Origin: Amoebophrya sp. A120
Lineage: Eukaryota > Protista > Dinoflagellata
Assembly: GCA_905178155.1 (NCBI GenBank)
Contig: CAJINV010000005.1
Coordinates: 4,940,256 to 5,004,255 of the forward strand
DNA: 64,000 nt
Reading direction: 5' to 3'
Notes under the pieces: model-generated
The model's database searches: none
Seen by the model: the letters and a program-made list of their open reading frames with translations, nothing else
Told to the model about the DNA's origin: nothing
Translations under genes and position numbers: made by a program
Shown here: piece by piece, positions 1 through 57,100 of the stretch
How positions within the stretch are numbered: the stretch's first letter is position 1
Layout: every line of letters starts with the position of its first letter

Positions 1-188
1 GGGGGAGCCTTGCATCTTCAGCATGATAGGAGGCAGCTGAGAGTGGGAAACAGCATGACAACTTGCCTGCAAACGAGACCACGACTGCGGCTCTTGGCCT
101 TCTAGCATGACAAGTCGATTTGGTACCTCAAATCCTGCATCACAGATTTCCATTTCGATATGGGGAGGGGGGATTTTTCCGTTGGATA
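1..188. mobile_element. Introner, family C (partial, right end only)
   Basis: Ends gatatggggaggggggatttttccgttggata; homologous to 2779-3089. Confidence 0.85.
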
Positions 189-3100
189 TTTCGTGTCCGA
201 CAACTTCGTGTGGAACTTAGACATCTACTGCGACGCCATATGGATTGTAAAAGTGTCTGGGTCTGGAAACTTGTGATGCTGGGTGGCGTATCATGAAAAG
301 GCCACAGATGCTGGCTCAGCACGACAAGCTTTTGAGCTTCTAGGTGTTGCCTATTCTGCATGACAAGCTGCGTTTCTGCATGGCAGCAGAATGGGGCTCT
401 TGGGAAACGGGCATAACAGATTTAAGAGTCATGCGAGACTAGCATGACAAATCTCGCAATCTTCCAGACCCAGACATTTTTGCATTCGATACGCCATGAA
501 GTTCTACGACTTCAACGACGCGGATAAAAACCTCGACGAGTGGTACCACATGGCGCTGATGTGGGACAAAGCGGCGCTGAAGCATAGAGTGTACGTATTC
601 CGAGTAAAAACATCCCCACTCCAGAGTTGTCATGCAAATTTGCATGCCAAAAAAGTTTCTCATGCGGAGCCCCATGAGAAGCTTTTTCTAGTCGTGTTTT
701 GGGATTTGTGATGCTAGAAATAGCATGATATGCTAGATCTGTGACGCTGCTGAACTAGCTAAACAGGATTACACGACGAGGACAAACTTGTCATGCGAGA
801 CAACCAAAGGTGGCCGATTTGTCTAGCAGATTTTCCACGTTGACTCTGGTATGGGGACGTTTTTACTCAGGATAGTACGTAAACGGTGTGATGATCAAGG
901 AGGGGACCACGGATAACGCGAATCTCCCCAACACTATCAAAGAAAAAAAGTTCGTCACGATCACTCATGCGCATTTTTGCAATGCAAAACTTTTTGTCAT
1001 GCGTAAAAATGCATCACAGCCAAACTTCATTAGGGATTTCCCTAGTATTTCTGCAATACAAGGAAAGTTTTTGATGCTGAGAAAATTTGTAATGCAAAAC
1101 CTGCAAGTTAGTGACTGTGACAAACTTGTTTCTCTCCATAAACACGGAAGTAGCGACAGGGAAGATCTGCCTGGGCGGCCGCGTGGATCTCTGCTGGGGG
1201 CAGGCGTCCGAGCGGTACCAGGGGGAGGTCGCCGGGTTTGCGGTCTACGCCGGGGCTCTAGGGGAGGCTGAAGTGATAAAACACATGGCCAGGACCGGGC
1301 CGCAGGGGCCGGTGCCTAGCTTTACGGAGCCGCCTTTTAAGGCGCAGATGCCGAAGGACACGACTGTGACGGTAGGCTACAAGCACACGAAGGAAAGTAT
1401 GTCTACCCGACCTTATGCAGAAGCCGAAACCATCCTCGGCCCTGCAACTTTTATCCGCACGACGCTCGCGGTTTCCCACGCGGACGGGCTGAAGAAGCTG
1501 GGAGCTTCTGTGATGTCCGAGAAGTTGGAAAACAGCTTCGAGAAGATTTTCCAAGAAAAAGCGGAATTGGTATTCGGATCAAATGTGAAAAAGCCCACCG
1601 AAAATTACCCGCCGCGGCTAAAGGGTATTTCCGTCGTGAAAACGACGGAAGCCGCTGCGAATTCCGAGCTTTTTTTGGAAGTAGTTCTCTCCTTCGCGGA
1701 TTGCACGCCGAGTGCGCTCGCGCGATTGCTGGTCCAACTATCGGACAATGCCGGTAATTCCGCCACAACGAGATCTGAGCTGGAGAAGAAGCTCACTTCC
1801 CTGTCCACTCCGAGCGGTTTCTCCGCGGTCCGGTTCTCCAACCGGGCGCAGGTCTTGCCGTCGTTCGACTACCCGGTGGCTTTTGATATCGAACTGGTCG
1901 GGATGGATAGTGGGAATAAAACTGAAGTGCTGAAACAGTTGGAAAACGGGGATAAGGAATTCGTCTTCGAGTCCGAGTGGCAATCCGCTTTTTCCGCCCT
2001 CCTCGGGCCGGCGGTGCGGCAGGCTTCTTTGACGAACAATTTTGATCTCGCCGTTGAGTCCGGTTTAATCGCCGCCACTGTCGCCACAAAGCGGTTTTTC
2101 CGGGGACCCACCACCACGACAACCACCACCACCGCGGGGTCGTCTCTCCGACTGCTGGGTGAAGAGGAAAGACGACAAATAGCAACCAGAAGATCTCTGT
2201 CCAGCAGCTCTGACGGCTCGAAGGAGGTTCTTAAAGTTTTCGTCACCGCCTCTCTGCCCGGTACCGAGGATCTCATCGGTTCTGGAACAATTTCCGTTCT
2301 GCAAGACCAAATCTTTTCCGCCGCAGCGAAGATCGTGCAGACGGTGAGCAAAAAATCCTCAGAAAACGTGAAAATCGTCCAGAACTCCGTGGATGTCGAA
2401 ACGGTGCACACCAAATACGCCCCCGGCGCGAAGACACAAAAGCAGACGGCCACGTTTTTGACAAGTCTGACGTTGAATCACGCGGAGGACAAGTTGTCCG
2501 CTTTGGATTTCAAATTCGGCTTGGCGAAGGGGTTGATTGCGGGAGGAAGTACCTCTTCCACGAAGGACTACCTAGCGTTGAACAACCTCCACGGCAAAGC
2601 CTTCCACGGCCAGTCCGGCGAGTCTTTTGGTGTTTCCCTCCTCGGCACTTCCGATAGTCTCAATTTCGGGGCGATTTCTGCTGGAGATTATCTCCAACCG
2701 CCAACCGGTAGTTCAGCCACCTGGGCGGCTGCGAGCGCGATTCCGTTCCTTGCCGTGTTCCCGCAGGTGGAGAAATCCTATTACAATGAAAAATGCCCCC
2801 TCCCCATATCAAAACGGAAATCTGTGATGCAGATTTGTGGTCACAAATCAGCTCTGTGATGCCAGAAGGGAAGAGATGCGTATTGTAGTGCTGGCTGGCG
2901 CAGGAACGCCTTGCGTCTTCAGCATGACAGGAGGCAACTGGAAATGGGAAATAGCATGACAAATTGCCTCCAAACGAGGGAGCAACTGCGTCTCTTGGCC
3001 TTCTAGCAATGCAAGTCGATTTGTGTACTCAAATACAGCAATACAAATTTCGTTTTTGATATGGGGTGGGGGGATTTTTCCTTTTGATAAATCCACTGGG

Positions 3101-6100
3101 TTGGTCAGGACGGCGAAATTTGACTCGAATTTGGCGTATGACAGTTCCTATGGATTGCAAAAATGTCTGGGTCTGGAAGAATGGCAGGTCTGTCATGCTC
3201 TGCTAGCATGACTCCAAAGTCTGTCATGCTCGTTACCCAAAAGCCCCACTTTTCTGTCATGCTGAAACGCGGTTTGTCATGCAGAATACGTAACACCTAG
3301 CAAGTCAGAAACTTGTCATGCTGAGCCGTCACTTGTGCCGTCCTCAGGATTCGCCAACCAGCATTACAAGTTTCCAGACCCAGACACTTTTGCACTTGAT
3401 AGTTCCTCCATCGTGAGTTATGATTCGAAGTTAACGACATTCCTGATTTCCGACGGGATTTTCGGCAGTGCGAAAACGAACGGCGGGATTTCCATGTGCG
3501 ACATCGGCTGCTCGGATGCTTCGACGGATTTCTGCTACGACAAACTCGTCAGCGACGTGGAGAAGGGGACTGTTTCGAGTTCGGACTCCACTAAAACGTC
3601 TTCTGCTGGGGAGAAGTATTTGAGGAAAACCAGTTACAGTGTTGCTGAGTGCGGTCGGACGGCTGTGTTGTTTCAATCTTCGTTTCCAAACGATGTGAAC
3701 GCAGCGAAAGCGGGGAATTTAGAAGACTGTTTAACTTACTGCGATACGCTTGGCCGTGTGAATTGCGCGGGGGTGAAGTTCTTTACTTCCTCGGGGACAA
3801 AGAAGTGCTTTTTACAGAAGTTCTCGTCCAAGGATTTTTTCAGCCGCGCGAAGGTTTTGTCTTCTGCCCCGACCTGCGGATCCGATGTCGCGTGTTTCGA
3901 GAAGCAAACGACGGGGGAGAATGAACCACTGTACACGGAAATGTTGAACCCGGCAACAGTTCCGGCCAAGAAGGGGCTGTGCGCAACAGGGAGCCATACA
4001 AATTTTCGTCTGCTGCCGGACCTCCGCGGTAGGGTTAAGGGGAACAAGTACAATTGTATGGAGCTCTATGCAATACAAATTTCCCCGTACATGTACAACA
4101 TGCATCACAAATTTCACCAATTTGGAGCGTAAAACTTGTCATGCTAAACTAGGATCAAAGCCATGTTTTGTCATGCAGAGACCGCATCTGTACGTGTGCG
4201 GGAAATTTACTGTGCATAAGCTCTGCACAGAGTACGGTCCGGATTGCGTTGGCGTCGCGGGTGTTCAGTTTAACAACGGCAATGACGGAATGGAGGCGGA
4301 CGGGACCGTGTTTTGTGAGCTGGAACTCCGCACCGTCGCCAACCTGGATGACAAATACCTTTCCTGGGGCTTCACCCTGAACGATTCGGGTTTTTCTACC
4401 TCGGAACCCGCGGCGGCTCTCAACACCGTGCAGCCTCGGACGGAACCGGCTGAGTGCTGGAAAAAGACGGCGACTGCAACGACGACGAACGGCCCTTTCG
4501 CCTCCTTGTCGAAGTTGTATGAGCAGAAGATCTCCGTTTTGAAACAGCAAGCGCAGAAGGCTGTCATGCCGTTTTTGACTATGGACGCGAAGGATCTACC
4601 CCACCCGTTGCTCGGCCAGAAACTAAACCTCGCGAGTACCCCATTGGACACGTTCACGAATAGAATCGTCACTGCGTCCTCGAACTTCAGTCCGGGAACG
4701 TACTACCAATTCTTGGGGTACGGAAACGCAAAATCCTCTTCGAATGGTTTGGTTGTCTCCGGTTCTCGCAAGTTCTACACGACTTATCAAATGCAAAAGT
4801 GTCTGGGTCTGGAAGGATGCGAACTTGTGATGCGTGTTGCGGATCATACAAAAATCTGTGTTGCATGACTTGCTAAAGTTCCCCATTTCTAGCCATGCCG
4901 GGGGGGGGGGTATTTCTCATGCAGAATAGGCATCACCAAGCGGCTGCAGAACCTGTGATGCTAGGCCCTGCATTACAGACTTGGTGGAGCTTGGAAAAAA
5001 TGCATGACAGATACCGGAATTTTCCAGACCCAGACATTTTTGCATTTGATACGACTGGGAATGGTGCGATCGCGCGGAGTGACAACGGGGTGATGGAGTA
5101 CGAGTTGATTTACAAAAATTGCTTCAACTACTGCGACTACCTCGGAAAACATTGTCACGCGCTCTCGATTCAGGTTGATTTAACCGACGGGAGTACCGGG
5201 AAGTACCAGTGCTTTGTCATGCTGGCCTCCCAGCCGGCTGCTACTCTTCTTCCGACCGCGCCGGCCAACACGGTGACAACCACGACAACCACGACGTATC
5301 AAAATGAAAAATCCCTTGTCCCCATATTGAAAAGGAAATTTCTGTTGCTGGATTTGTGTACACAAATCAGCTCTGTCTTGCAGTGGGGTGCTGCAGGCAA
5401 AGCCTCAGCCTGCTGCGTAGGGGTGTTTTGATGTAGGTGCTTAGCATAAAAGCAGAGGCCTGCCGTATAGGCGCAGCAGCATAATTACAAACCGCCTCCA
5501 TAAAGCGGCGCACTCTTTGGATTTGCCCTCTTGCAAGAGAGACAGGATTTGTGGCCACAAATCAGCGTCGCAAATCTTTAGAAGCGTGCCCTTTCAACAG
5601 TATGGGGAGGGGGGATTTTTCCTCACAATACCACGGCTTTTTCCTTCCCAACCATCTCTGTCACACGAGAGCCGGACACCGTGGACTGGTACGACGCCAT
5701 GGCGTTTTTGCCGGATAACGTCGGCTATGAAATGCAAAAATGTCTGGGTCTGGAAACTTGTGATGCTAAAATGTGGATGATGGAAACAGTTCCGAATGCA
5801 ACCCAGCATGACAACTTTCCAGAATGCTTTCTCATAGTCAATCCGCATGAGAAACTGCGTTATTGCATGTACAAAAGAGGCTGCGACTTGTGTTGGTTAT
5901 GCAATACAGGTTTCCTAGCTAAGGAAAGCAAGCATTACAAGTTCCAATCTTCCAGACCCAGACATGTTTGCAATCCATATCGGCGGGTTTTACGGCGGCG
6001 TTTGTTCGGACAGCAGCACGGAGGACATATCCTGTGTGAAAACGTCCCCACCCCTACAGAGTTGTCATGCAGATTTGCGATGACAGGAAGATTTGTAATG

Positions 6101-9100
6101 CGCATGTCCATGCCATGCATCACTAATCGCGTTTTGGAATTGGTGATGCTGTAAACAGGATAAGCAGATGGATTTGTGATGCGATTGTCCTTGCTAACAT
6201 GCACTACACTACGGAGTGCAACTTGTCATGCGTGGCTCCCAAAACTTCTGGATTTGTGTTGCTAAGGTCCCAACTTGACTTTTGATGGGATGGGGACGTT
6301 TTTACATATGATAGGACAAGGCAACTGTCTACGACAAAATCTGCGATGAGGCGGATAGCTCTATCGCGGACTGCGACAGTACTACGCACGACTGCTGGGA
6401 GAAGCCGGATACACTCGCTTCCGATCTACTCCCCAGGGACGTTTTGAACGAAATCGTGCAGAATCCGGACTACACGAACAACGGCCGGGGCGCCGGCGAC
6501 AAGTACGAGCCGCATCAGTACAAGCGCATGAATCTCGGCAGTCCGGATTTCGTCTACGAATTTGTGCGGCTCGGGATCTGCGGGACAGCAAACTACGGCC
6601 AGTACAACAGCGGGACAACGATTGTGCCGGACTATTTGTGCAATGAACCGAACGGGGGGCTAGACACAAAGCTAGGCGTAGGGACGTACGACAAGGTGCA
6701 AAAACGGCAATACATCATCCGCCAGTGCGACAAGTTTGTGAAAACAAACAGCTACTGCGCCGGGGTGACCTGGAACCAGGAACCCGACATGACGCACGCG
6801 AGTCCCGGGTACGCTAGGCCCTACGGCAGCATGGAGCGCAACATGAACGCCATGGCCATGCCCGGTTGCTTTCCGAGGAGTGGGGGCGGCTGGAGTGCGC
6901 CGGTCGGGGATATCACCGGTGTGCGGAGTAGCGGCACCTCCGGCAACGTGGACGGCGGCGGGAACGTGTGCTGGCGCCACAAACCCGTGCCTTATTCCCC
7001 GACGTTGTCGAAATTCGGCCACTGGTACAGTAGGTTTGGGACCAACAAAGCCGGGTCTGGGTTTTGTACCGCACAGAATGCGAACCCGAACAGTGGATCT
7101 GTGGTGAAAATCGCAGAAAAAATTACGCTTGGCGAGTGTTTCAACTTGTGTGATGCGATGGGCGCGGATTGCAAGGGAATTTCGATGGACAAGAGAACGA
7201 AATACAGTCACACGTACCAGGGACAAACCTGGTCGGCCCGCGAAGATTCGGACGAAAAAAGGGATTGTTATTTGAAGTTCAATGGGAAGACTTGCCAACA
7301 ATTGAAGCAATCTAACACCGGTCCGAAAAACGAAAAAATCACCTGCGATAACCTCCCGGCTGGAATATGAACTGCAAAAGTATCGCACTCGTATAAATGC
7401 ATTACAAATCTTCTCAGCATGAGAAATAAAATTTGTAATGCTGATTTGCCTTGACAATGAAACTTGTAATGCAAGACCAGCATTTATACGAGTGCGATAC
7501 TTTTGCACAGGATATGGAACCCCGCCGATCAATTGTCCGCTCGGTTGGCATATCAAATGCAAAAGTGTCTGGGTCTGGAAGAATGCAACTTGTAATGCGT
7601 ATTTCAGAACACAGAAAAGTCTCTCATGCATACGTAGCAAAAGCTCCCACTTTTTGTCAGCAGAGTAGGGGACTTGTCATGCGGATTCGGCATTCCGGAA
7701 GGTTCTCGAAACCTGTGATGCTAGAGCTTCCATGCCAGACCTTCTGTGTCATGCAAAAACAGCATGACTCTTCCAGACCCAGACATTTTTACATTTGATA
7801 TGGCAGAAGAGAAAGGACCCCAACTTTTTGTGCCCAGGTCGGTACGGGTGCTCCGCGAGTACGTGTTGCGAGGAGTCGACTTGTGCGAATAACAACGGCG
7901 GAAAAGTCGCGTCTGCTAGTGGTTTCGATTGCGCGTTCCACGGGGCGACGGCGCTATGCGGGGTAGATCCGAAAACCATCCGGTGTGGGAGAAACGGGGA
8001 GGGTTGTACGGTGCAGGACTGCTGTTCTACTGTGGCCACTGTATTCTGTGTAAAAACATCCCCACCCCAGAGTTGTCATGCAATTCTGCATGCCAAAAAA
8101 GTTTCTGATGCGGAGCCCCATGAGAAGCATTTTCTACCCGTGTTTTGGAATTTCAATTTGTGATGCTATAATCAGCATGATGTGCTAGATTTGTGATGCT
8201 GCTGAACTACCTCAACAGGATAAGGATTACACTACGATGAGAAACTTGTCATGCGAGACAACGAAAGCTGCCTGGCTGATTTGTCTAGCAGCTTTCCCAT
8301 CTTGACTATGGGGTCGTGAGGACGTTTTCACTCAGGATAAGACCAATGCGGTAATTACGGGTGGGAGCTCGACTGCCCGGGCAGTGGCGGACAAGACTGC
8401 ACGAAAAATTTTGGTGAAATTGCCCAGGCGGCGGCATTATGGATTGCAAAAATGTCTGGGTCTGGAAGGATCCAACTTGTGATGCTGTCTTTGGATTCTA
8501 AAAAAATCTGCATTGCATGACCAGCAAGAGGAGGGGGAGGCCAGTTTGTGTTACATGGAGAGGGTATTTCTCATGCGGAATAGGCATCACAAAGCCCTCT
8601 AAAAATCTGTGATGCTAGGCCATGCGTTACAGGCTTCGTGGCTGATGCAGAATATGCATGACAAACCTTCCATTCTTCCAGATCCAGACATATTTGCAAT
8701 GCATAGGCAGGAGGGCAGGAAGTGGTGTTCGTGAAGAGGAATGTGTTTGGCGATCAATTGTGGGATAGCGGTTACATCGCGGATTTCTACAAGAGTTCAA
8801 CCCAGTTGACCTCCAAAGCAGAATCCACCAAATACGGCGCAAGTAGATCAATCATCTCCCTCGGGACGCACTATGCCGTCACGAAAGATGAGTGTGCGGA
8901 CGCGTGCAACCAGTTTGGGGACTCCTGCGACGGCTTCATGCGGTTTCCGAAGGACAGTGCGGATACGACGAAAGCGACCTGCGCGCTGCAGCTCCTGCAA
9001 CCCAGGCCGTTGCACTGCGCGTTCGATTTCGGGAATTCTGCGAATTCGCCTTCAATAACCTCCGTTCCCGCCGCGGCTGATGTGGCAGATGGGGAGGCGA

Positions 9101-48100: not shown

Positions 48101-51100
48101 GAACTGACCCCAACGCGATTGTCTGCCTAGCTTGCAACGGGGAAAAGACGTACACAACCATCGCTGACGTTGAGAAGGATAAGTGGACGGTCGTCGCGAA
48201 CCGGAAATTCACCGAGAACGCGCAAACACAACATGGCGAAAAAGTTCTCTGGGACAAGCGGAGTGCGAATAAGGAAACGTGTGCGAATACCGGGGGTTTG
48301 GTTTTCGCAGAGTGGTTGGATGCTAGCAAACCCGACGAAGCAACGATCACCGCGATGCATTTGGAGAAACAGTTCGACGAATGGGCGAAGATTTCCATCA
48401 CGATCGGCAACTGCGACACGGTTTATACCGGAATCCGGACGAATAGCTACACTGAGAGCCCCGACGCTATTGAAGGAGGGTACCGGGTGATGGACCGAAT
48501 CGGCTACACAACGGTGGAGTTTAACAACAAAATCGTTGGATATGCCGGCCCGGGGGAACAGAAGACAATCGAAATCATGGTCCACCCGGGGGCGAAGGTG
48601 AAGATCGTGAACGAAGCCGGGCGGATCAGGGACAGCGGTGTTATCGTTCTGTACAAGATCAAATCCGAGTGCGTGAATCTGGTTTCGGAAGAAACTAATC
48701 ACTGTCAATCGAAAAATCGGTGCACCGACGAGCAATACCGCGCCGGAACCGGCTGGGACTGCGAGCGTTTACATCTCGCGAAATCGAAGAAATCGGAGAC
48801 AGCTTACCCGTTGAACGACGGAATCAAGTACCGACTCTTCGATCGCGATCCGCTCACCGGGGGCCAGGGGTCCTACGCGAAGATCATTAACGAGAATCAC
48901 CAGGCTGGGTTTGGTTCGAAAGCTGGGTGGACGGTGATCAAAGATTCGCTGGTGGGTATGTACAAGTGGGATGAAGAGGGTATGTCCGGGTATGACGAGC
49001 TGCAGGCGAACGGCGACACCGGGCACATCCAGACCAAGTGGAATGATAACGGCGGTTTGATCACCGGGGGACAGAATTTCCCGGGCAGGTGCTGTCCCCA
49101 GCACGCGGCGTTCTGCCGAAATGTGGGTTACTGGCTGATGGAGTTCCCGACGCAAGTTCGCGACCCGAAGGGGAACGAGGATTTGGCGAAGGTTACGAAG
49201 TACTGCGATCAGATCACGACTTGCGCGGGGTTTGAGACCGACATGACAAACAGTGCGATTTTCAAAGTCCGGCTCTTCTTCGAGTACGATTACCGCACGG
49301 AGAACGGGTGGCCATTGGAGATTATGCATTGCAAAAACCTTGCACCATCATAGGACTGCATGACAAATTTTTGTAGAACTAGAAGGAAAAACCTGTCATG
49401 CTGAACACGTCATGAGATGCCAAGCCTGTCATGCGTCAAATCCGATGAGGTGTAACAAGGTAAACTTTTGCGATGGATAATTATGGGGAAGAACTTCAAG
49501 CAGGACATGGTCGATTTGAACTTATCAACAGATAAAGACATCCAGAAGAAGTTCCCCGGTGTGGCGAAATTTGTCTACCAGAAGCAGGGCGCCGGTGGGG
49601 AATACTTCCCGTCGAACGACGAACTCGGCCGCAATTACGACACCGCGCACGCGAAAGTTTCCCGGGCGAGTTATGCTGAGTAAAAACGTCCCCACCCCAG
49701 ACTTGTCATGCAAATCTGCATGCCAAAAAAGTTTCTCATGCGGAGCCCCATGAGAAGCATTTTCTAGTCGTGTTTTGGAGTTTGTAATGCTAGAATCAGC
49801 ATGATATGCTAGATCTGTGATGCTGCTGAACTAGCGAAACAGGGCCACATTATGAGGGCAAACTTGTCATGCGAAACAGTGAAAGCTGGTTGATTTGTCT
49901 AGCAGATTTCCCATCTTGACTCTGGTGTGGGGATGTTTTTAGTCAGGATACGAGTTACTGGGAGGGACAAGGCGGGCTGGCTCAGGGCCGGGACCCTTAT
50001 AACGATCCTACTCTCACCTCTCCTGGGTTTGGCATCGGGCAAGTGATGCCGCCGTTTCCGGAGAACAGCTTGAATCCCAATAACAAGTGGCATTGCTTCA
50101 AGAAGCGGACGCATTCCCCATTCCGCTCCGAAGATTACTACCAAACCACTTGGAAGGAGCCGAATAACGAGTTCTGGCCCGACGACGGCTGGGGTGGTTC
50201 CTACACCGGCGAGCCGGCGAAACGACCCAACGATCTCGGGCTGCACAAGTACAAGGAGATTTACACCATTCCGTCGAATCTTTGGAATCGCCACGGGCCG
50301 TATGGCGACGGCGGAACCGCTTCGAACGGGGGAATTGGGGATAAAGCTTACTACGAGGTCCGGCCGCATCCAAACCAGGAAAAAAGCGCATCCCACGGGT
50401 TTTGCACGTTGAGCGGTGATCCGATTACAACGTATAAGATGCACACAAGGACAGTCCCCCATGAATTACTCCACAAGTGTTTCGAAACCTGCGACCACTT
50501 AGCGCCGTATTGTATCGGAGTTTCAGTCAACCGCGGGCGGTACTGGTGGCACGCAGCAAGATATCCCACGAAAAAAATGTTTCACTGTGATGATTTTGCA
50601 AGAACCGCATGATAATTTTGCTACACATGACACAGAAAATTTGCCATGCGCGTTTCCCAAGGGAAAACACGCTTGAAAATCCAATGTCTTGCAGTTATAG
50701 CAAGACAAATAGTTTTGTGCTCCATTTTCTGCATCACAGAGAAGCAGTTTTTTCGTGCGATACAAGAGGGGTGGAAGGGAACAGGTACGGGAACGAGATG
50801 GATCATGAAACGCAGGTCCGGACCGGCGACATGATCCCGTTCTTCGACGTGAAATGCCACTTAATGTTCACCGATGCGTTCCCGACCACGAGTGCCGGTT
50901 TCACCGGGGATGGTATCGCTGGGTCACCAACTGAAAAATCTGTCGGCCTAGGGGGGCAGAAGACCTGGCCGGGGTTTTACGACGAAAAGTGGGTGGAAAA
51001 TGGCGGCCCGATATGCAAGAAAAAAGCTGTGTTAGTAACTTTTTTGGGTGACTAGCATTACAAATCTGTCTAGCACGACAGGGAGAACTTGTCATGCGCA

Positions 51101-54100
51101 AATAATACGCCAGATAATCGCTTGAATGAGCCCTACCATGCATGACTAGCATGACAGACATGACCCATTTCCTTGTCTCGCATCACAGATAAACGCTAAC
51201 ACACTTTTTTCCTCGCGATACCCGGCTTCGAACGGCTACCAATACGACTATTGGTGGGAAAAGCGGCAACCCGCGCTGGGGAAGTCCTATTCCCCGAACA
51301 CGAGGACTCTAGACATGGAAAGGTACTACCACCAGCAGTACTACGAGACGATGAAGCCCTATGGGCCGACCGTGTGCTTCGCGCGCTGCGACGCCCCCGG
51401 CGTGGGGAGCGAGTGCGCGGTGAAGTACGATCGGAAGAAGTGGTGGGATGGGACTCTCTGGTCCGAGCCGGCGAAGAGGCCGTGGCAAGCGTCCACAACC
51501 TACACCTACGAGTGGGACATGGGCGAGAAGGACACGGACTGCATGTCGCACGAGTGGGTTTCGATCCCCAACTCCATGATTCCCAGTTCCAACAACGGCA
51601 TTGCCTTCGATGATACAATCAATGATGGAAAGCCAACAATGACTCGAGATTTCTGCCAAGATCTCTGCTACGGGTCCTTCAAATACGCCGACGTCACTGG
51701 GAAGAAGCAGTCGCGCTGCCGTGCCATCGCGTTTGACGAAACAAGCAACAAATGCCGGCTGATGATGCAGAAGCAGGGGGGTTCCAACCCCTTAGCTCCC
51801 GCAAATGCGATCGCGACGCAGTTTGAACTACTCTGGCCGAAGAACTTCGGAAAAGTGGATCTCGTCACGAACGCGTTTATTTGTGACGCGGTGGCGAACC
51901 CTTCCACCTGCTACAACGCGGTAGCGGCCAGGGGTGTGATCAAGGATTCCATGCAGCTAGGTTCAAGCTCCGCGAACGTCGAAGCAGTCGCGTTTCCGCC
52001 GGCTGTGATGCAAATCGGGTCCAAATCTTCCCCCGCAACTAGTCGGTCCAACGTGCGAATTGGTGCGTCGAAATCGGTGGAAAAAAGAAACCAGGACAGC
52101 TACATTGAAGCAAGGTTTGTTCTCAACCCTGGTGGTACCGGGACTTTGGAACCCGCAATGGAGCAAGAGCTGATCGAGAAGATGAAAATTTCCGCGTATC
52201 TGACTGTCGTGAAGCAGAAGTTCCTCTTCCCGATGAACTTAGTCGACACGGAATACCATTTCGATGCAACAAACTTTCAGTCCGCGGTGGATTCCGGAAT
52301 TCTCTCCCTGAACCGGATCTCCGTGGTTTTAGGCGAGTCTTCCGCCACCGCTGCGTACCCGGAAAGGACTTTCGTGATTACCTATCACTTCCAAACGGCG
52401 GACTCTGGGATTGTGGGGGAGGTCCTGCGGTTTGTGAACCGGGATAGTTATTTGAAGACACTTACAGACGAGTTGAAGGAGCAGTGTAAATCAAATACCG
52501 CGCTAGCTTCGACTTTGATCCCGGTGCGGCCGCCGGGGGTCACGGTTCCGGACACGATCACGAAGCGGAAGGACAATTTGATTACCGCGAATTTGCTTTC
52601 CTTCAGTGAGCAGTCGGGAATGAAGATGTTTTTGCAAGTGACGATCGAAAATGCGGCTGATTCCAAGCAGAAGGTGGAGAGAATTCTCCGCCGGAAGTTG
52701 GTCGGCTCTAAAGACAACAACTGGATCGCGCGGTCTATCGCGACTGGGTTGAACTCCAGACTCGGGTTGGGCTTGACCAGCAACCACGTGGCGGTTCGAA
52801 TCAAGGAAATCACGCTATCCGCAGCGAAAACCGGCACAGCACTCGATGGAATATCAACTGTAAAAATGTCTGGGTCTGGAACATTCTGACACTTGTCATG
52901 CACGTTTTGCATGTGCCCTGATGTCTGTGATGCGTGCCCTAGCATCACAGATTTTTTGAGAGCTTCTTGTTGCCTATTCCGCATGACAAATGCCCTCGCC
53001 ACGTAGCAAAAATTACATTTCTTTTGGTACTCATGCAATACAGATTTTTCTGGAATCCAAATGCAGCATCACAAGTTGCATTCTTCCAGACCCAGACATT
53101 TTTACATTTGATACGGAACGACCACAGTCGACTGCATGGATGCGGAGATTTTCTTCTCCTTCTCCATCCCATCCGCCGCACCGAGTCTGCAACTCTGGTT
53201 CAGCCGAGACGGGGCAGCCAAGCAGTCCGCGGTATTGGATGCGATTGATGCGAGCGTCGCAACGCTGTCGACTTACAAGACGACGAAGAAGTCGGAAATT
53301 ACCGGTTCTGTGAAGCAAACCCGGTTTTTAGAAACCGTGGTCGACGCGGATTTATCCTTAAACTACAAGGACGTCAACGCGTTTGACAACGCTGGGGTGT
53401 TTGAGAAGTTGATTTCTGTTGCTGCGGATTATCGAATGCAAATGAGTCTGGGTCTGGAAGATTGCGAGACTTGTCATGCTGATCTGGCATGACCCTTAAC
53501 TCTGTATTGCGTAGCCACGAACAGCCTCTCGCTCCTGTCATGCAAAAACGCGGTTTCTCATGTGGAATACGCAGCACAGAAGCGCGGAAAAACTTGTCAT
53601 GCTTGGCGGCGCATTACAGTGCATTTGTTATTGACGGACTTGCATCACAAGTTTCCAGACCCAGATATATTTGCAGTGCATACGGAGGTGGCGTTCGCAA
53701 ACCGGAATTCCGGCAGCTTCAGGTTGGATTCTAGTACCTCTGCTTCTGCCGAGGTAAAGCAGATTTCCGATTTGTTGACCTCCCTCGACATGGAACTGCC
53801 GATAGCGAGCGAGTTGATAGTTGGGTTTGACGCGCGGGAGCATTCGCCTGTCACGGATGACATGCTCTGTTCGTTCGACGCCACAACACCGGTGAGTCGG
53901 AAGCGCAAGGTGGTTTTGACCCTTCCCTTCACCTGGGAAGAGCATTCCACGGTCTCCGGGCAGCAGGAGTCGTTTGTGAAAACGTTCGAGTCGTTCGTTG
54001 GATTGTTCTATGAGGAAGAAGGCGGGACTGCGACCATAATGGCAAACCACTTGAAAGCGGCGTTGAACATGCTTTTAGATGGTGAAAAGGTCATGACGGT

Positions 54101-57100
54101 GGCGAATTCTGTCGCGCCGGCGGCTTCGAATTCGCAAGTCACGGGCTTGACCTGGAAGGGGTACAAGAGCAGTAGTAGTTCTTCTAGTTCATCTTCCTCT
54201 TCTCTGCGGGCTCTGACCAGCTTGGAAGGGAGATTTATCAAATGCAAAAATGTCTGGGTCTGGAAGATTCTGAGATTTGTCACGCAGTTTTTCCAAGCTC
54301 CACCGAGTCTGGAATGCAGGGCCTAGCATCACAGGGTCCGCAGCCCCTTCGTGATGCCTGTTCTGCATGAGAAATGCCCTCTCAGCATGGCCAGAAGTAC
54401 GCACCTTTTGCAAGTCACGCAGCACAGATTTTTGTATGATCCGCAACATGCATCACAAGTTCGCATCCTTCCAGACCCAGACGTATTTGCAATGCATAAG
54501 ATTTGAACAACAGCAAGAACAACTCGATTTCGCCCTCGAGCACATGGATCTTTTGGACGAGAACTACGAGGAAACCGCGGCTCTCCGGGAGTTATCCTCT
54601 TCTTCTACTTCCACCGCCGCTGTTGAGCCAAATTGGTCCGCGATGGCGGCAACAACGGATCTGTCCCTCCAGTCGAAACCCCGCGCGTTCTTTCTGGAAG
54701 TGCCGGTGGACTTGACTGTGGTGCATTCTCTGACGCAATTCTACAGCAAGGAATACATTTCGATTCTCTTGAAACAAGCGACGTTCGATTTAGTCGAGGC
54801 AGAAATCGTGAATGTCGGATCTAGTAGTGAAACCGTCAGAACCACTGCTTTGTCCGCCTGGAAGCAGAAATTGGAAAAACTAACCGGAACGGTTTCCGCC
54901 GGGAGTCCTCGAACCGGGGGGCAGAACAGAGTCGATATCGATTACGAAAACGACCCGGTTTTGCTCGTCGATTGCCGGTTTGATATCACCAGGTCGACGT
55001 CCCTTTCTGATGCTGCTTCCACCGATAAGGATTTCGCAGTGAAAGAAACAGCAATGGTTTTCCTGCAACTCCAGCAAGCGGACTCGTTCGTGATTGGACA
55101 AATCTTGACGATTATGGCCGATCAAACGAAGTTGCTGGCGAAACTACAGGGGCAAACCTCTTTAGGTTCGACTGGCGCGACCATCTTCCCAGAGTTGAAA
55201 ATCCTCTCCCGGGATGGTCTCCAGCAGGTCCCCGCAGGGGATACGGTCATCCCTTCCCTCGCCGTTTCGAAACTTCGGCTCCCCGTCATCGCTGACTTGT
55301 TAATCGACGAAAACGCCATGTTGAAGCCAAACGGCACGGTGGTTGCCACGGAAGTCGCGGACGCGTTCCGGGAGTTGCTGGGGGATGTGTTGACAACTGA
55401 TTCTTTCACGTTACCCGCTTCCTCCCTCATCGCAGAATCTTCGACGCAGGCGGCGGGTTCGGTTTACAACCAGTTTTTGTTCGATTTGTACGTGCCGATA
55501 AGTCTGTCTTCTTCTGTTTTGTCTGCGGAGAAATTGGCGTTTTTGAAATCCTCTAACGCTGCGGAATTCGTGAGACAGAAGTTGAACTCTGGGTTCGAAT
55601 CCGATAATTACACTTCCGGTCGCGTGAAACAATTGGTGATTAAAACCGGGGGGAGTTCTGTCCAGCAGGATTTCATCTCGACGCATTTTAAACTAACTCC
55701 CGCCCCGAACCCGGAAGTTTTCAAGGCGGTTGCGGCGTTCCAATCGGTCTTCGCGTCTGTGTTTTCCTCGTTGAAGGACGGAATACAATTCCCTCGGTCG
55801 GAGATGGTGGTTGTCGCGCCGGAAAAGAACCTCGCGGTGGACAAATTCTCCATCGTGATGCCGAGCAAGAGTTTGCTTTCGTACAGTGATGCAGAGTTGA
55901 TATCTGCACTGCAACAAACGGACAATCTGGCGAACTCCGTCACCCCTCGGTTAGAAGGGGTGGGAATTTCTCTATCCGCCGCTTACCCCCCGCCGAGTGG
56001 GACCTTGAAGTTGACGGATACAGCGATCTTACCGACCAGTTCGAAGGACGTTGCGACTTTGAACAAAAACTCGGGTCTGAACTCCAACGGCGTTTTGGAA
56101 TTAACCGCCGGGATTTCAGTTTTACAAATCGACTTCCGGGTGCTGTTGGCGAACAGCGAGAGTAGTTCTCCTGAGATGAAAACCGCTCGGCAGAAGTTGG
56201 GTTTTAGCGATAAATCGAAAGTCGGTGGTTTGTTGGAAGAACTGAAGACGTGGTTTAGGGCTGCGATCAAGGAATGTCTTGATTCAGGCTCCACCGCGGA
56301 AGTCGCGACGGTCGTTTCTTCCTCTAAGGTGAAGTCCGGGAAAGTATTGACGGGTTCGAAGACGATTCAGTCTAACAAACTCACCCTTTCCGTCCGGCTT
56401 TATACCGGGAAGGAGAGCAATGCGGAGGATGCTGCAAAATCCGTTCTCCAACTCTCCCAGATGCTGAATAAAGGAACAAGCAAATCCACTTGCGTCTTGG
56501 ATAAAGTGAACACGAACCTGCAGACTTTCACGACCTTATCTTCGTCGGATGCTAGTGCTGAGATCCTAACCGACTTCCCGATTGCTCTTCCAGTGATCCA
56601 GGGAAGAGGGTTGATTTCCGCCGGGGCAGGTTCCGCTGTCGTTACCGCGGTGAAGAAATCAGGGACTGGAGAAAATCCAGTTTCCCCACTAGCGAAAGCT
56701 TTATCCGATGCGTTAGCTGCTGCCGACGCGGGTAACGTCCCGGCTGAGATGATCACGGTGGACGTTCTCGCGAAAGCAACGCAAACCAGCACTAAAGCGC
56801 AGTTCTCCTTCGCGATTCCAGGTGCTTTCGGCCCGGAAGCTGACTTTTTATTGAAGTCCAATCCGCCCGAAACGCTGAAATTTCTGCTGGAGAAGAGCTT
56901 GAAGCTGCGGCTGAAGGAGAACACTGTGACTGGTGTTTCCACCACCGATGCGGAGAATGTGAAAATCGAACTCGCTTCTCTCAACGGGGCGAAGCAGCAA
57001 GACACGGTGTTTTTAACCGGGTTGGTGGAGATCCAGGAACAAACGAGTTCTGGAAATATTGACCCTGTGACAACTGCTTCCGCGTTGTCTTCCGGGTTGC

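What the first reader, a model, noticed from the sequence alone, without database searches (positions are those of the whole stretch)
596..54498. The same introner sequences occur in both orientations, so the removal signal is strand-symmetric
Seen: reverse-complement pairs within one gene include 596-874 vs 24562-24851, 2779-3089 vs 25523-25835, 6028-6313 vs 18775-19053, 935-1140 vs 40413-40645, 27302-27557 vs 41512-41764, 4785-5051 vs 27956-28217 and 54236-54498, and 23653-23974 vs 43043-43364. Established: spliceosomal introns have polar signals (donor, branch point, acceptor). Inference: recognition relies on the terminal stem or on dsDNA. This leaves open DNA-level excision, analogous to TA-bounded or pointer-flanked ciliate IESs, as an alternative to RNA splicing.
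Basis: partly seen in the sequence, partly recalled or inferred. Interest (0 to 1): 0.8.

Follow-up and report, generated by a model that had tools for sequence, protein, structure and literature searches.

The report
Hairpin transposon introns, either way round
One giant gene is interrupted by 68 small inverted-repeat transposon copies lying in both orientations, and RNA lacks exactly each tested copy plus one target duplication without normal splice signals; this is real but matches the introner elements already described in the parasite Amoebophrya, and removal is likely guided by the terminal hairpin in RNA, not by DNA excision.

Summary
Observation confirmed.

The window is one + strand reading frame of 15,137 codons once 68 elements are removed, each as element plus 5 nt. 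The elements have TAT-N7-AAAAA termini, about 30-nt inverted repeats and 5-bp target duplications (49 of 68 perfect). Only 2 of 68 can be read as GT..AG in any register.

With the inverted repeats trimmed, the interiors are polar and occur in both orientations: 10/7, 7/7 and 10/3 in the three main families.

RNA libraries lack exactly element+5 for 7 elements, including both orientations of two families. DNA contigs keep the elements.

Interpretation partly supported. Orientation independence follows from the inverted repeats, which give the same 5' and 3' ends either way, so polar signals are not excluded. DNA-level excision is not supported.

The system fits the published introner elements of Amoebophrya sp. 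A120 (PMC7789003), so it is already known. Orientation is not discussed there. Earlier notes of this scan describe similar hairpin introns on other genomes.

The parts
106..64000 (+). Single open reading frame of 15,137 codons after removal of the 68 elements. It is open at the window's right end and continues upstream through a truncated element. One exon (18891-21068) carries a Laminin_G_3 domain.
   Evidence: ORF and controls; PF13385, E 4.9e-16
1..188 (.). 69th element, cut by the left edge of the window. It is related to family E and ends ...TTTTTCCGTTGGATA at 188.
239..491 (+). Family A2 element, relative orientation + (sign is relative to the first member of the family, as in all rows below). 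TSD CGCCA/CGCCA.
596..874 (+). Family B, orientation +, TSD GTACG/GTACG
935..1140 (.). Element inverted relative to 40413-40645, TSD AACAC/AACAC
2779..3089 (+). Family E, orientation +, TSD AATCC/AATCC
3149..3401 (-). Family A2, orientation -, TSD GTTCC/GTTCC
4067..4218 (+). Family F (about 150 nt), TSD AGCTC/AGCTC
4785..5051 (+). Family A1, orientation +, TSD CGACT/CGACT
5297..5630 (+). Family C, orientation +, TSD CGACG/CCACG
5726..5979 (+). Family A2, orientation +, TSD TCGGC
6028..6313 (+). Family B, orientation +, TSD GGACA
7366..7514 (.). 149-nt element, TSD TGGAA
7551..7800 (+). Family A1, orientation +, TSD TGGCA
8042..8339 (+). Family B, orientation +, no recognisable TSD (CACTG/AGACC)
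8438..8705 (+). Family A1, orientation +, TSD GGCAT/GGCAG. Keeping the left copy's 5th letter creates an in-frame stop.
10289..10541 (-). Family A2, orientation -, TSD CGTGT
11492..11744 (+). Family A2, orientation +, TSD GACCA/AACCA
11810..12088 (+). Family B, orientation +, TSD GACGC
12312..12521 (.). 210-nt element, TSD TCCCG
15075..15356 (+). Family B, orientation +, TSD GCAGA/TCAGA
15412..15659 (+). Family A2, orientation +, TSD ACGGG
15908..16228 (+). Family C, orientation +, TSD CTGCG
16424..16751 (.). 328-nt A-like element, TSD GAAGC
16816..17029 (+). Family D, orientation +, TSD GGACA
17310..18432 (-). Family A1 termini, orientation -, 1,123 nt with an 860-nt G+C-rich insert, TSD ACAGC
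18775..19053 (-). Family B, orientation -, TSD ATGAA. A piece of run X3 ends exactly at 19054.
20967..21229 (-). Family A1, orientation -, TSD GTAGC/GTAGT. RNA joint 20960>21229 skips 268 nt.
22263..22515 (+). Family A2, orientation +, TSD TCCGA/GCCGA. RNA joint 22258>22517 skips 258 nt.
22565..22829 (-). Family A1, orientation -, TSD GATTG
23653..23974 (-). Family C, orientation -, TSD CCTTG. RNA joint 23646>23974 skips 327 nt, with the two sides adjacent in the contig.
24562..24851 (-). Family B, orientation -, TSD CGACT. A piece of run X3 starts exactly at 24852.
25523..25835 (-). Family E, orientation -, TSD CGTGG/CATGG
26149..26416 (+). Family A1, orientation +, TSD GTTAT
26555..26810 (.). 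256-nt element with a different inverted repeat (TATGACCTGCTCAAATCGG...), TSD GTGTC
26867..27118 (+). Family A2, orientation +, TSD CGGGG
27302..27557 (+). Family A2, orientation +, TSD GTTCA/GCTCA
27956..28217 (-). Family A1, orientation -, TSD CGCGG
29466..29719 (-). Family A2, orientation -, TSD GTTGG/CTTGG. RNA joint 29461>29721 skips 259 nt.
29917..30168 (-). Family A2, orientation -, TSD GTGAA. RNA joint 29911>30169 skips 257 nt.
30218..30520 (+). Family B, orientation +, TSD GAAGT
31432..31695 (+). Family A1, orientation +, TSD GCCGG. RNA joint 31426>31696 skips 269 nt.
32066..32318 (-). Family A2, orientation -, TSD GGGGC
35248..35396 (+). Family F, TSD GTCTT/GTTTT. 59 raw RNA reads of run X12 join 35245>35400 (skips 154 nt).
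37446..37708 (+). Family A1, orientation +, TSD AGTCC. 102 reads of run X12 leave the window sequence after 37443.
37772..38035 (+). Family A1, orientation +, TSD AGCGT
40413..40645 (.). Element inverted relative to 935-1140, TSD AGATC
40727..40987 (+). Family A1, orientation +, TSD TTTCT
41150..41411 (+). Family A1, orientation +, TSD TCCCT
41512..41764 (-). Family A2, orientation -, TSD CAACC
42183..42465 (+). Family B, orientation +, TSD ACCCG
43043..43364 (+). Family C, orientation +, TSD CTGGT
43414..43678 (-). Family A1, orientation -, TSD AAGGT
43739..43947 (.). 209-nt element, TSD TTCGA
44266..44422 (.). 157-nt element, TSD CGGCA/CGGGG
45924..46185 (+). Family A1, orientation +, TSD CCGGG
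49323..49479 (.). 157-nt element with TAT...ATA ends and no TSD match (GAGAT/ATTAT). Its removal clears three in-frame stops.
49672..49950 (+). Family B, orientation +, TSD CGAGT
50562..50762 (-). Family D, orientation -, TSD CAAGA
51012..51220 (.). 209-nt element, TSD CCCGA/CCCGG
52852..53113 (-). Family A1, orientation -, TSD TGGAA/CGGAA
53430..53682 (-). Family A2, orientation -, TSD CGGAT/CGGAG
54236..54498 (-). Family A1, orientation -, TSD AGATT
57194..57402 (+). Family D, orientation +, TSD TCTTG
57867..58145 (-). Family B, orientation -, TSD GTTTC/ATTTC
58214..58387 (.). 174-nt element, TSD CAAGC
59684..59963 (+). Family B, orientation +, TSD AGAGG
60591..60869 (+). Family B, orientation +, TSD ATTTT/ACTTC
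62004..62226 (+). Family G, TSD CATCA/CCTCA
62290..62505 (+). Family G, TSD GTGGT

Best explanation
The window is one gene of more than 15,000 codons on the + strand, interrupted by 68 non-autonomous inverted-repeat transposon copies (149-1,123 bp, TAT-N7-AAAAA termini, 5-bp target duplication). In the 7 elements covered by RNA data, RNA libraries lack exactly the element plus one duplication copy, and both orientations are among them; the cut is likely positioned by the roughly 30-bp terminal hairpin that the inverted repeats would form in the transcript, which is the same whichever way round the element lies.

Shown:
- anatomy of the elements;
- both orientations within families;
- frame restoration for all 68 elements;
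- absence of element+5 nt from RNA for 7 elements;
- presence of the elements in DNA;
- no GT-AG boundaries.

Inferred:
- removal is RNA splicing for all 68 elements;
- the hairpin, rather than a linear motif, sets the cut;
- the 5' exon keeps the first 3 (or 4) letters of the left duplication, so the cuts would lie about 2 nt before and 3 nt after the helix;
- the enzyme is unknown (a divergent spliceosome or another machinery).
For: Anatomy:
- 88 terminus matches pair up as 44 left/right ends.
- 49 of 68 elements have a perfect 5-bp duplication, 15 of 68 have one mismatch and 4 of 68 have more.
- Across all 68 elements the conserved ends are TAT-N7-AAAAA and TTTTT-N7-ATA.

Exact removal:
- Element+5 nt removed gives one 15,137-codon ORF; the longest ORF in other frames is 386 codons.

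Boundaries:
- Only 2 of 68 elements can be read GT..AG in any equivalent register, and 5 of 68 can be read GT-AG, GC-AG or AT-AC.
- There are 55 different first-two/last-two letter pairs at register 3.
- The duplications show no consensus.

Orientation:
- With the repeats trimmed, families split A1 10/7, A2 7/7, B 10/3, C 3/1, D 2/1 and E 1/1, with 0 inconsistent edges.

RNA:
- Metatranscriptome run X6 has contigs skipping 268, 258, 327, 259, 257 and 269 nt. These equal element+5 for 20967, 22263, 23653, 29466, 29917 and 31432.
- Run X12 has 59 raw reads skipping 154 nt, which equals 35248-35396 plus 5.

DNA:
- In run X1, 8 of 8 listed pieces run without mismatch from exon into 24-64 nt of the flanking elements, at depth 39-47.

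Hairpin:
- The median ungapped terminal stem register is 30 positions, with 25 Watson-Crick pairs.
- One element of each orientation folds with a long terminal stem, z -4.8 and -5.3, with 0 of 200 shuffles as stable.
- On the sense strand G.U mismatches outnumber A.C, 46 to 27 (p 0.034).
- Sense folds are slightly more stable than antisense, -98.9 against -96.4 kcal/mol (p 0.04).

Register from imperfect duplications:
- Letter 1 comes from the left copy (22263, 29466).
- Letter 3 comes from the left copy (35248, raw reads).
- Letter 5 comes from the right copy (20967 in RNA; 8438 gives an in-frame stop otherwise).

Literature:
- Amoebophrya sp. A120 introner elements are described with inverted repeats starting TAT, then seven variable letters, then at least three A. 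They have 3-5 nt direct repeats, a hairpin model, a mean length of 240 nt and no detectable U1 (PMC7789003, sections 10, 11, 12 and 16 read).
- In Euglena, knock-in tests showed that base pairing near the ends of nonconventional introns is required (PMC12501133, passages).
Against: - RNA evidence covers 7 of 68 elements. Six rest on single short metatranscriptome contigs (depth 9-17.5), and five of those are flagged 'between: not known'.
- No family B joint was seen in a certain RNA run. For B there is only the ORF argument, plus two pieces of run X3 (whose kind is a guess) that stop exactly at element borders.
- RNA runs X10 and X11 hold almost nothing of the gene (3 reads each), so splicing efficiency by orientation could not be compared.
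- The G.U excess and the sense/antisense energy difference are weak (p 0.03-0.04) and could come from strand-biased mutation.
- Complementarity of the ends is expected for any inverted-repeat transposon, whether or not RNA pairing matters.
- The register inference assumes that duplication mismatches arose after insertion, that the RNA came from the same allele, and that all families share one register.
- The inverted repeats and a subterminal motif (GTCATGC/GCATGAC: 134 copies in 12.7 kb of element interior against 5 in 44.8 kb of exon; both polarities in 29 of 30 A1/A2 elements) could be linear, polar signals.
Confidence: 0.6

Rival explanations
1. A divergent spliceosome reads linear, polar motifs that lie inside the inverted repeats: 5' TAT-N7-AAAAA, and 3' TTTTT-N7-ATA acting as a pyrimidine tract, with a branch site in the 3' repeat or the subterminal GCATGAC. 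The hairpin would play no part. Orientation independence would then be a by-product of the repeats carrying both signals at both ends.
For: - Both ends are identical in either orientation.
- A run of T lies 11-15 nt before the 3' end in 54-66 of 68 elements, depending on position.
- CATSAC starts 30-65 nt from the 3' end in 34 of 67 elements.
- Nearly all spliceosome proteins are reported present in Amoebophrya (PMC7789003, passage).
- Fritillaria removes transposon-derived non-canonical introns with a modified U2 spliceosome (review PMC11282704, passages).
Against: - The letters at the cut itself lie in the variable duplication: 55 different terminal letter pairs among 68 elements. No fixed dinucleotide is available for the usual chemistry.
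- U1 is reported missing (PMC7789003, section 16).
- In family B the internal motif is polar (0.4 against 3.1 copies per element, reversed in the other orientation), yet both orientations keep the frame.
- There is a weak G.U over A.C excess in the stems.
Confidence: 0.3
2. The elements are cut out of the DNA, like ciliate internal eliminated sequences, in the cells or the nucleus that express the gene, and the RNA merely reflects that DNA.
For: - The elements have TA ends and short direct repeats like pointers.
- Removal is exact.
- The joint table for the DNA run was cut (968 rows not shown), so rare empty sites cannot be excluded.
- Run X3, whose kind is only guessed to be RNA, has pieces that stop exactly at element borders.
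Against: - DNA run X1 covers exons at about 42-46 summed depth, and its contigs continue from exon into the element ends at that depth in 8 of 8 listed pieces. Only one piece has 31 or more letters on the element side at both ends.
- The genome assembly itself holds all 68 elements.
- The element-free form was seen in libraries recorded as RNA (X6, X12).
- The window has 51% G+C, unlike the A+T-rich ciliate genomes I recall (not tested here).
- The published account finds these junctions by RNA-seq against the DNA assembly (PMC7789003, sections 10 and 32, passages).
Confidence: 0.03
3. The gene is a dead, transposon-riddled pseudogene, and the elements are not removed at all.
For: Two RNA-seq runs of the organism show almost no reads on the gene (3 reads each in X10 and X11).
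Against: - A 15,137-codon frame without a stop survives once the elements are taken out exactly.
- Spliced RNA is seen in two environmental runs and one culture run.
Confidence: 0.02

Closest known systems
Introner elements among the non-canonical introns of Amoebophrya sp. A120 (Farhat et al. 2021, PMC7789003; Gozashti et al. 2025, PMC12130899)
   Same: - Non-GT-AG introns of about 240 nt, with inverted repeats at the ends and 3-5 nt direct repeats over the borders.
- The A120 repeat motif 'TAT, seven variable letters, at least three A' is exactly what all 68 elements show.
- Many families of inverted-repeat DNA elements of 149-322 bp with non-canonical splice sites are listed for A120.
- Tens of introners in one gene are reported.
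- A hairpin model has been proposed.
   Different: - Nothing essential differs. The window probably comes from that organism or a near relative; this is an inference, because the organism labels of the runs are coded.
- Not found in the paper's main text or its held supplement: any statement on element orientation relative to the gene.
- The paper reports 3-5 nt repeats of variable position. Here the duplication is uniformly 5 bp, and a cut register is suggested.
Nonconventional introns of euglenids (Milanowski et al.; Euglena splicing code, PMC12501133)
   Same: - No GT-AG.
- The ends pair in RNA.
- Short direct repeats at the borders make the junction 'slidable'.
- A suspected origin from miniature inverted-repeat transposons.
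- Cuts set at fixed small distances outside the paired motif (3 nt on the 5' side and 5-6 nt on the 3' side in Euglena; about 2 and 3 nt suggested here).
- Base pairing is shown to be required in Euglena.
   Different: - The Euglena motif is CAG...CTG with only a short pairing. Here it is TAT-N7-AAAAA within a roughly 30-bp stem.
- The lineage is unrelated.
- Circular excised introns are shown in Euglena and were not testable here.
Canonical introners (Micromonas, Aureococcus, Polarella; Gozashti et al. 2022, PMC9860276)
   Same: Transposon copies with inverted repeats and target duplications that become introns on insertion. Opposite-orientation insertion is allowed for in that paper's search method.
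   Different: Those use GT-AG (or GY-AG) sites carried by the element or made by the duplication. Here 66 of 68 elements cannot be read as GT..AG.
Non-canonical introns of Fritillaria borealis derived from transposons (Henriet et al. 2019, seen only through the review PMC11282704)
   Same: Recent introns derived from inverted-repeat transposons, not GT-AG.
   Different: Fritillaria has preferred dinucleotides (AG-AC, AG-AT) and uses the U2 spliceosome. Here there is no preferred dinucleotide.
Ciliate internal eliminated sequences
   Same: TA-ended, transposon-derived, exactly removed, with short direct repeats at the borders.
   Different: Those are removed from DNA. Here the DNA run and the assembly keep the elements and the RNA lacks them.

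Membership tests
Amoebophrya-type introner elements (non-canonical introns with inverted and direct repeats) | Intron borders differ from GT-AG, with no fixed dinucleotides | tested here: met
   2 of 68 elements are readable as GT..AG in any equivalent register; there are 55 different terminal pairs at register 3.
Amoebophrya-type introner elements (non-canonical introns with inverted and direct repeats) | Inverted repeats of 8-20 nt or more between the intron's 5' and 3' ends, able to form a hairpin | tested here: met
   The median is 25 Watson-Crick pairs in a 30-position ungapped register. Folds have terminal stems, z -4.8 and -5.3.
Amoebophrya-type introner elements (non-canonical introns with inverted and direct repeats) | Direct repeats of 3-5 nt across the exon/intron borders | tested here: met
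   A 5-bp duplication is perfect in 49 of 68 elements and has one mismatch in 15 of 68.
Amoebophrya-type introner elements (non-canonical introns with inverted and direct repeats) | A120-specific repeat motif: TAT, seven less conserved letters, then at least three A | tested here: met
   Positions 1-3 are TAT in 68 of 68 elements; this is partly by my selection, but the borders are validated by the frame test. Positions 11-13 are A in 64-67 of 68. The motif wording comes from PMC7789003, section 11.
Amoebophrya-type introner elements (non-canonical introns with inverted and direct repeats) | Absent from mature RNA, present in DNA | tested here: met
   7 elements have RNA joints equal to element+5. 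DNA contigs run into the element ends. The remaining 61 rest on frame restoration only.
Amoebophrya-type introner elements (non-canonical introns with inverted and direct repeats) | The source organism is Amoebophrya | not testable with these tools
   No genome is held for the window and the organism labels of the runs are coded. The assignment rests on the motif match and on family sizes.
Canonical introners spliced at GT-AG | GT (or GC) at the start and AG at the end, carried by the element or made by the duplication | tested here: not met
   2 of 68 for GT-AG; 5 of 68 for GT-AG, GC-AG or AT-AC.
Ciliate-type internal eliminated sequences | Element missing from the DNA of expressing (somatic) nuclei | tested here: not met
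   In DNA run X1, 8 of 8 listed contigs continue from exon into the element ends at exon depth. Rare empty sites are not excluded, because 968 joints were not shown.
Ciliate-type internal eliminated sequences | Germline and somatic nuclei with different genomes | not testable with these tools
   No data.
Euglenid nonconventional introns | CAG at +4 to +6 pairing with CTG at -8 to -6 (code N3-CDG...CH'G-N5-6|R) | tested here: not met
   The ends here are TAT-N7-AAAAA and TTTTT-N7-ATA. The Euglena code is taken from PMC12501133.
Euglenid nonconventional introns | Terminal base pairing with slidable, duplication-like borders and no GT-AG | tested here: met
Euglenid nonconventional introns | Excised as full-length circular RNA | not testable with these tools
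   Both read-laying runs had been used, and no circle-junction search was possible.

The most novel reading that the evidence does not exclude
Every intron of this gene of more than 15,000 codons is removed by a ruler mechanism that measures from the end of a roughly 30-bp RNA helix. It would cut about 2 nt before and 3 nt after the helix, whatever letters stand at the cut and whichever way round the transposon lies. That would be a spliceosome-independent (or radically re-tooled) mRNA splicing pathway in a syndinian parasite, convergent with the nonconventional splicing of Euglena. It would let inverted-repeat transposons land anywhere in coding sequence at no cost.
Probability: 0.3. Interest if true: 0.8.

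Novelty: already known. Interest (0 to 1): 0.4.

Why it matters
How these introns are recognised without splice-site letters is an open question, stated as such in PMC7789003, section 16.

This one window gives a compact test bed. It holds 68 such introns and no GT-AG intron in a single reading frame, with the same families in both orientations. Imperfect target duplications in it reveal where the cut falls.

The result shows that the element interior is dispensable as a polar signal. It also shows that the information must lie in the last roughly 30-45 nt at each end or in their pairing.

In practice, gene finders that expect GT-AG will break such genes into fragments. A rule of 'TAT...ATA element plus one 5-bp duplication' restores them.

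Tried and rejected
- Whole genome of the window: none is held, so no genome-wide orientation or register statistics were possible.
- First read lay: the joint table was swamped by repeat-to-repeat joints of DNA run X1 (968 rows not shown). The second lay used only RNA runs.
- Runs X10 and X11 (raw RNA reads): 3 reads each on 19.9 kb. They cannot be used for splicing efficiency and are no evidence either way.
- Run X9 (metatranscriptome): 14 records laid, with no joint listed.
- The loose end of X12 reads at 37443: its 30 letters have no match in the window at up to 3 mismatches. It remains unexplained.
- Splicing at GT/AG inside the inverted repeats (GTCTGG...CCAGAC reads GT..AG either way): considered early and rejected, because the RNA joints and the frame require removal of the whole element plus 5 nt.
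- Pfam on nine long exons: only Laminin_G_3 passed its cut-off, and the PAN hits were below theirs.
- Search for the repeat letters in the supplements of PMC12130899: 0 hits in 12 of 14 files; 2 files were not searched.
- One search was badly framed and returned unrelated papers.
- Huff et al. 2016 could not be opened. My recollection of what it says about orientation is not used.
- Earlier notes of this scan: none for this genome.

Full report
**1. What is there**

A self-comparison of the window finds 84 inverted pairs of at least 100 nt (73-87% complementary; 25 listed). It also finds 69 repeated intervals.

The repeats have sharp ends. A left terminus such as TATCAAATGCAAAAATGTCTGGGTCTGG, or TATCCTGTGTAAAAACGTCCCCACCC in a second type, is matched by its reverse complement about 250-300 nt downstream. 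There are 88 terminus hits in all, which pair as 44 left/right ends. The copies are flanked by 5-bp direct repeats.

Scanning for TA...TA ends with matching inverted repeats and 5-bp duplications, and inspecting the remaining frame breaks, gave 68 complete elements of 149-1,123 nt (median about 257). A 69th is cut by the left edge of the window.
- 49 of 68 have a perfect duplication, 15 have one mismatch and 4 have more.
- Together with one duplication copy each, the elements make up 28.9% of the window.
- Across all families the conserved ends are TAT-N7-AAAAA and TTTTT-N7-ATA.
- The duplication itself has no consensus.

**2. One gene, exact removal**

Taking out each element plus 5 nt leaves a single + strand frame of 15,137 codons, from position 106 to the end of the window. 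The longest ORF in any other frame is 386 codons.

Controls:
- With no removal, the longest + ORF is 1,271 codons.
- With element+0, 1, 3, 4, 6 or 7 nt removed, it is about 1,070 codons.
- With +2 and +8 nt, it is 8,811 and 9,647 codons.
- In 200 trials with each removed length jittered by 1-2 nt, the maximum was 1,554 codons.

No GT-AG intron is needed anywhere in the 64 kb. Only 2 of 68 elements can be read GT..AG in any register that gives the same product, and only 5 of 68 can be read GT-AG, GC-AG or AT-AC.

One exon carries a Laminin_G_3 domain (E 4.9e-16).

**3. Orientation**

With 32 nt trimmed from both ends, the interiors still cluster into families with a definite polarity. There are 204 pair edges, none ambiguous and none inconsistent.

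| Family | Split by orientation |
|---|---|
| A1 | 10/7 |
| A2 | 7/7 |
| B | 10/3 |
| C | 3/1 |
| D | 2/1 |
| E | 1/1 |

The pair 935-1140 / 40413-40645 is linked only in the untrimmed comparison.

**4. RNA and DNA**

One search found coded runs of 'organism A' and of an estuary metatranscriptome.

RNA:
- Metatranscriptome run X6 (40 records laid) has contigs that skip 268, 258, 327, 259, 257 and 269 nt.
- Each skip equals element+5, for 20967-21229 (A1 '-'), 22263-22515 (A2 '+'), 23653-23974 (C '-'), 29466-29719 and 29917-30168 (A2 '-') and 31432-31695 (A1 '+').
- Five of the six are flagged 'between: not known'. For the sixth, the two sides are adjacent in the contig.
- Run X12 (raw RNA reads) has 59 reads skipping 154 nt, which equals 35248-35396 plus 5.
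- Both orientations of families A1 and A2 are therefore absent from RNA.
- No joint was seen for family B in a certain RNA run.
- Runs X10 and X11 had 3 reads each, and run X9 showed no joint.

DNA:
- Run X1 has exon-only bins at summed depth 42-46.
- All 8 listed long pieces (of more than 20,000 laid) run without mismatch from the exon into 24-64 nt of the elements on both sides, at depth 39-47.
- Bins dominated by elements reach summed depths up to 166,149. The tool warns that this is not a copy number.
- The X1 joint table was cut (968 rows not shown), so rare empty sites cannot be excluded.

**5. Where the cut falls**

Because of the duplication, the junction can slide by 5 nt or more. Imperfect duplications narrow it.
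- The RNA keeps letter 1 of the left copy at 22263 and 29466.
- It keeps letter 3 of the left copy at 35248 (raw reads).
- It keeps letter 5 of the right copy at 20967.
- At 8438, keeping the left copy's letter 5 makes an in-frame stop, while registers 0-4 do not.

If one register holds for all, the 5' exon keeps 3 or 4 letters of the duplication. The cuts would then lie 1-2 nt before and 3-4 nt after the element. This is suggestive only: it assumes post-insertion mutation and identical alleles in the RNA source.

**6. Mechanism**

The inverted repeats form a long terminal stem in the sense RNA in either orientation (z -4.8 and -5.3).

Among stem mismatches on the sense strand, G.U (46) exceeds A.C (27), p 0.034. 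Sense folds are slightly more stable than antisense folds, p 0.04. Both signals are weak but point to pairing in RNA.

The key logical point is that inverted repeats give the transcript the same 5' end and the same 3' end whichever way the element lies. Both orientations being removed therefore does not prove a non-polar signal. It proves only that the interior is not needed as a polar signal.

Polar linear signals in the repeats cannot be excluded. Nor can the strongly enriched subterminal motif GTCATGC/GCATGAC:
- It has 134 copies in 12.7 kb of interior against 5 in 44.8 kb of exon.
- Both polarities occur in 29 of 30 A1/A2 elements.
- In family B it is polar.

I put hairpin-positioned RNA removal at 0.6, linear signals read by a divergent spliceosome at 0.3, DNA excision at 0.03 and a dead gene at 0.02.

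**7. What is known**

Farhat et al. 2021 (PMC7789003; sections 10, 11, 12 and 16 read, other passages searched) describe this in Amoebophrya sp. A25 and A120:
- More than 60% of introns are non-canonical.
- Introner elements have 8-20 nt inverted repeats and 3-5 nt direct repeats, with a hairpin model.
- The A120 motif is 'TAT, seven less conserved letters, at least three A'.
- The mean length is 240 nt.
- 29,850 repeated introns make up 17% of the A120 assembly.
- U1 is not detected.

The window's elements fit this word for word, so the window most likely comes from that organism or a close relative. This is an inference, because the labels are coded.

Other sources:
- Gozashti et al. 2025 (PMC12130899; passages and 22 of the 58 A120 rows of supplement file 8) list 58 A120 families. 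Among the rows seen are inverted-repeat DNA elements of 149-322 bp, mostly with non-canonical sites, and they mention tens of introners in one gene.
- Gozashti et al. 2022 (PMC9860276, passages) allow for opposite-orientation insertion in their search.
- In Euglena, knock-in tests showed that pairing near the ends and fixed spacers (3 nt and 5-6 nt) define nonconventional splicing (PMC12501133, passages). That is the closest working analogue.

I found no statement on element orientation relative to the gene in the main text or the held supplement of PMC7789003. Nor did paper searches turn one up.

Earlier notes of this scan report similar hairpin introns on other genomes. I did not test them.

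**8. Verdict**

The system is already described. The orientation point is a modest addition that follows from the element anatomy. The DNA-excision alternative is not supported. The mechanism of removal remains open, and this window is a good place to test it.

Noticed in passing
window 17310-18432: One A1-type element is 1,123 nt long. Normal termini and a perfect duplication (ACAGC) enclose an 860-nt G+C-rich insert. The insert holds short 11-13 nt tandem arrays in opposite polarity (AGAGGTGGCCG and ACCTCTCGGCC).
   Followed up: partly
window 33551-37443: Raw RNA run X12 covers only this 3.9-kb stretch of the giant gene, at depth about 100. 34 reads begin at 33551 preceded by letters that I recall as a template-switch oligo. 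102 reads leave the window sequence after 37443, which is the third letter of the duplication of element 37446-37708. They continue into 30 letters that match nowhere in the window. This may be one amplified cDNA molecule, a different allele, or an aberrant join at the 5' cut site.
   Followed up: partly
element interiors, whole window: The 7-mers GTCATGC and GCATGAC (and the variant GTGATGC/GCATCAC) are enriched. They have 81+53 copies in 12.7 kb of interiors against 3+2 in 44.8 kb of exons. They peak about 30-50 nt from each end, like the subterminal binding sites of a transposase.
   Followed up: partly
all 68 elements: Element length plus 5 is a multiple of three in 33 of 68 elements, where about 23 would be expected. 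This may only reflect the preferred lengths of the families.
   Followed up: no
window 26555-26810: One element has a different inverted repeat (TATGACCTGCTCAAATCGGTTACC...) with a 15-17 nt tandem duplication inside each arm, yet the same TA ends and 5-bp duplication.
   Followed up: partly
window 106-64000: The coding frame is at least 15,137 codons, open at the right end and continuing upstream, with no GT-AG intron at all. Only Laminin_G_3 was found, in the exon at 18891-21068; the PAN hits were sub-threshold.
   Followed up: partly
window 8042-8339, 49323-49479, 44266-44422, 60591-60869: Four elements have two or more mismatches between their duplication copies. Two of them (8042 and 49323) have a length plus 5 divisible by three, so their exact borders are not fixed by the frame test.
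   Followed up: no
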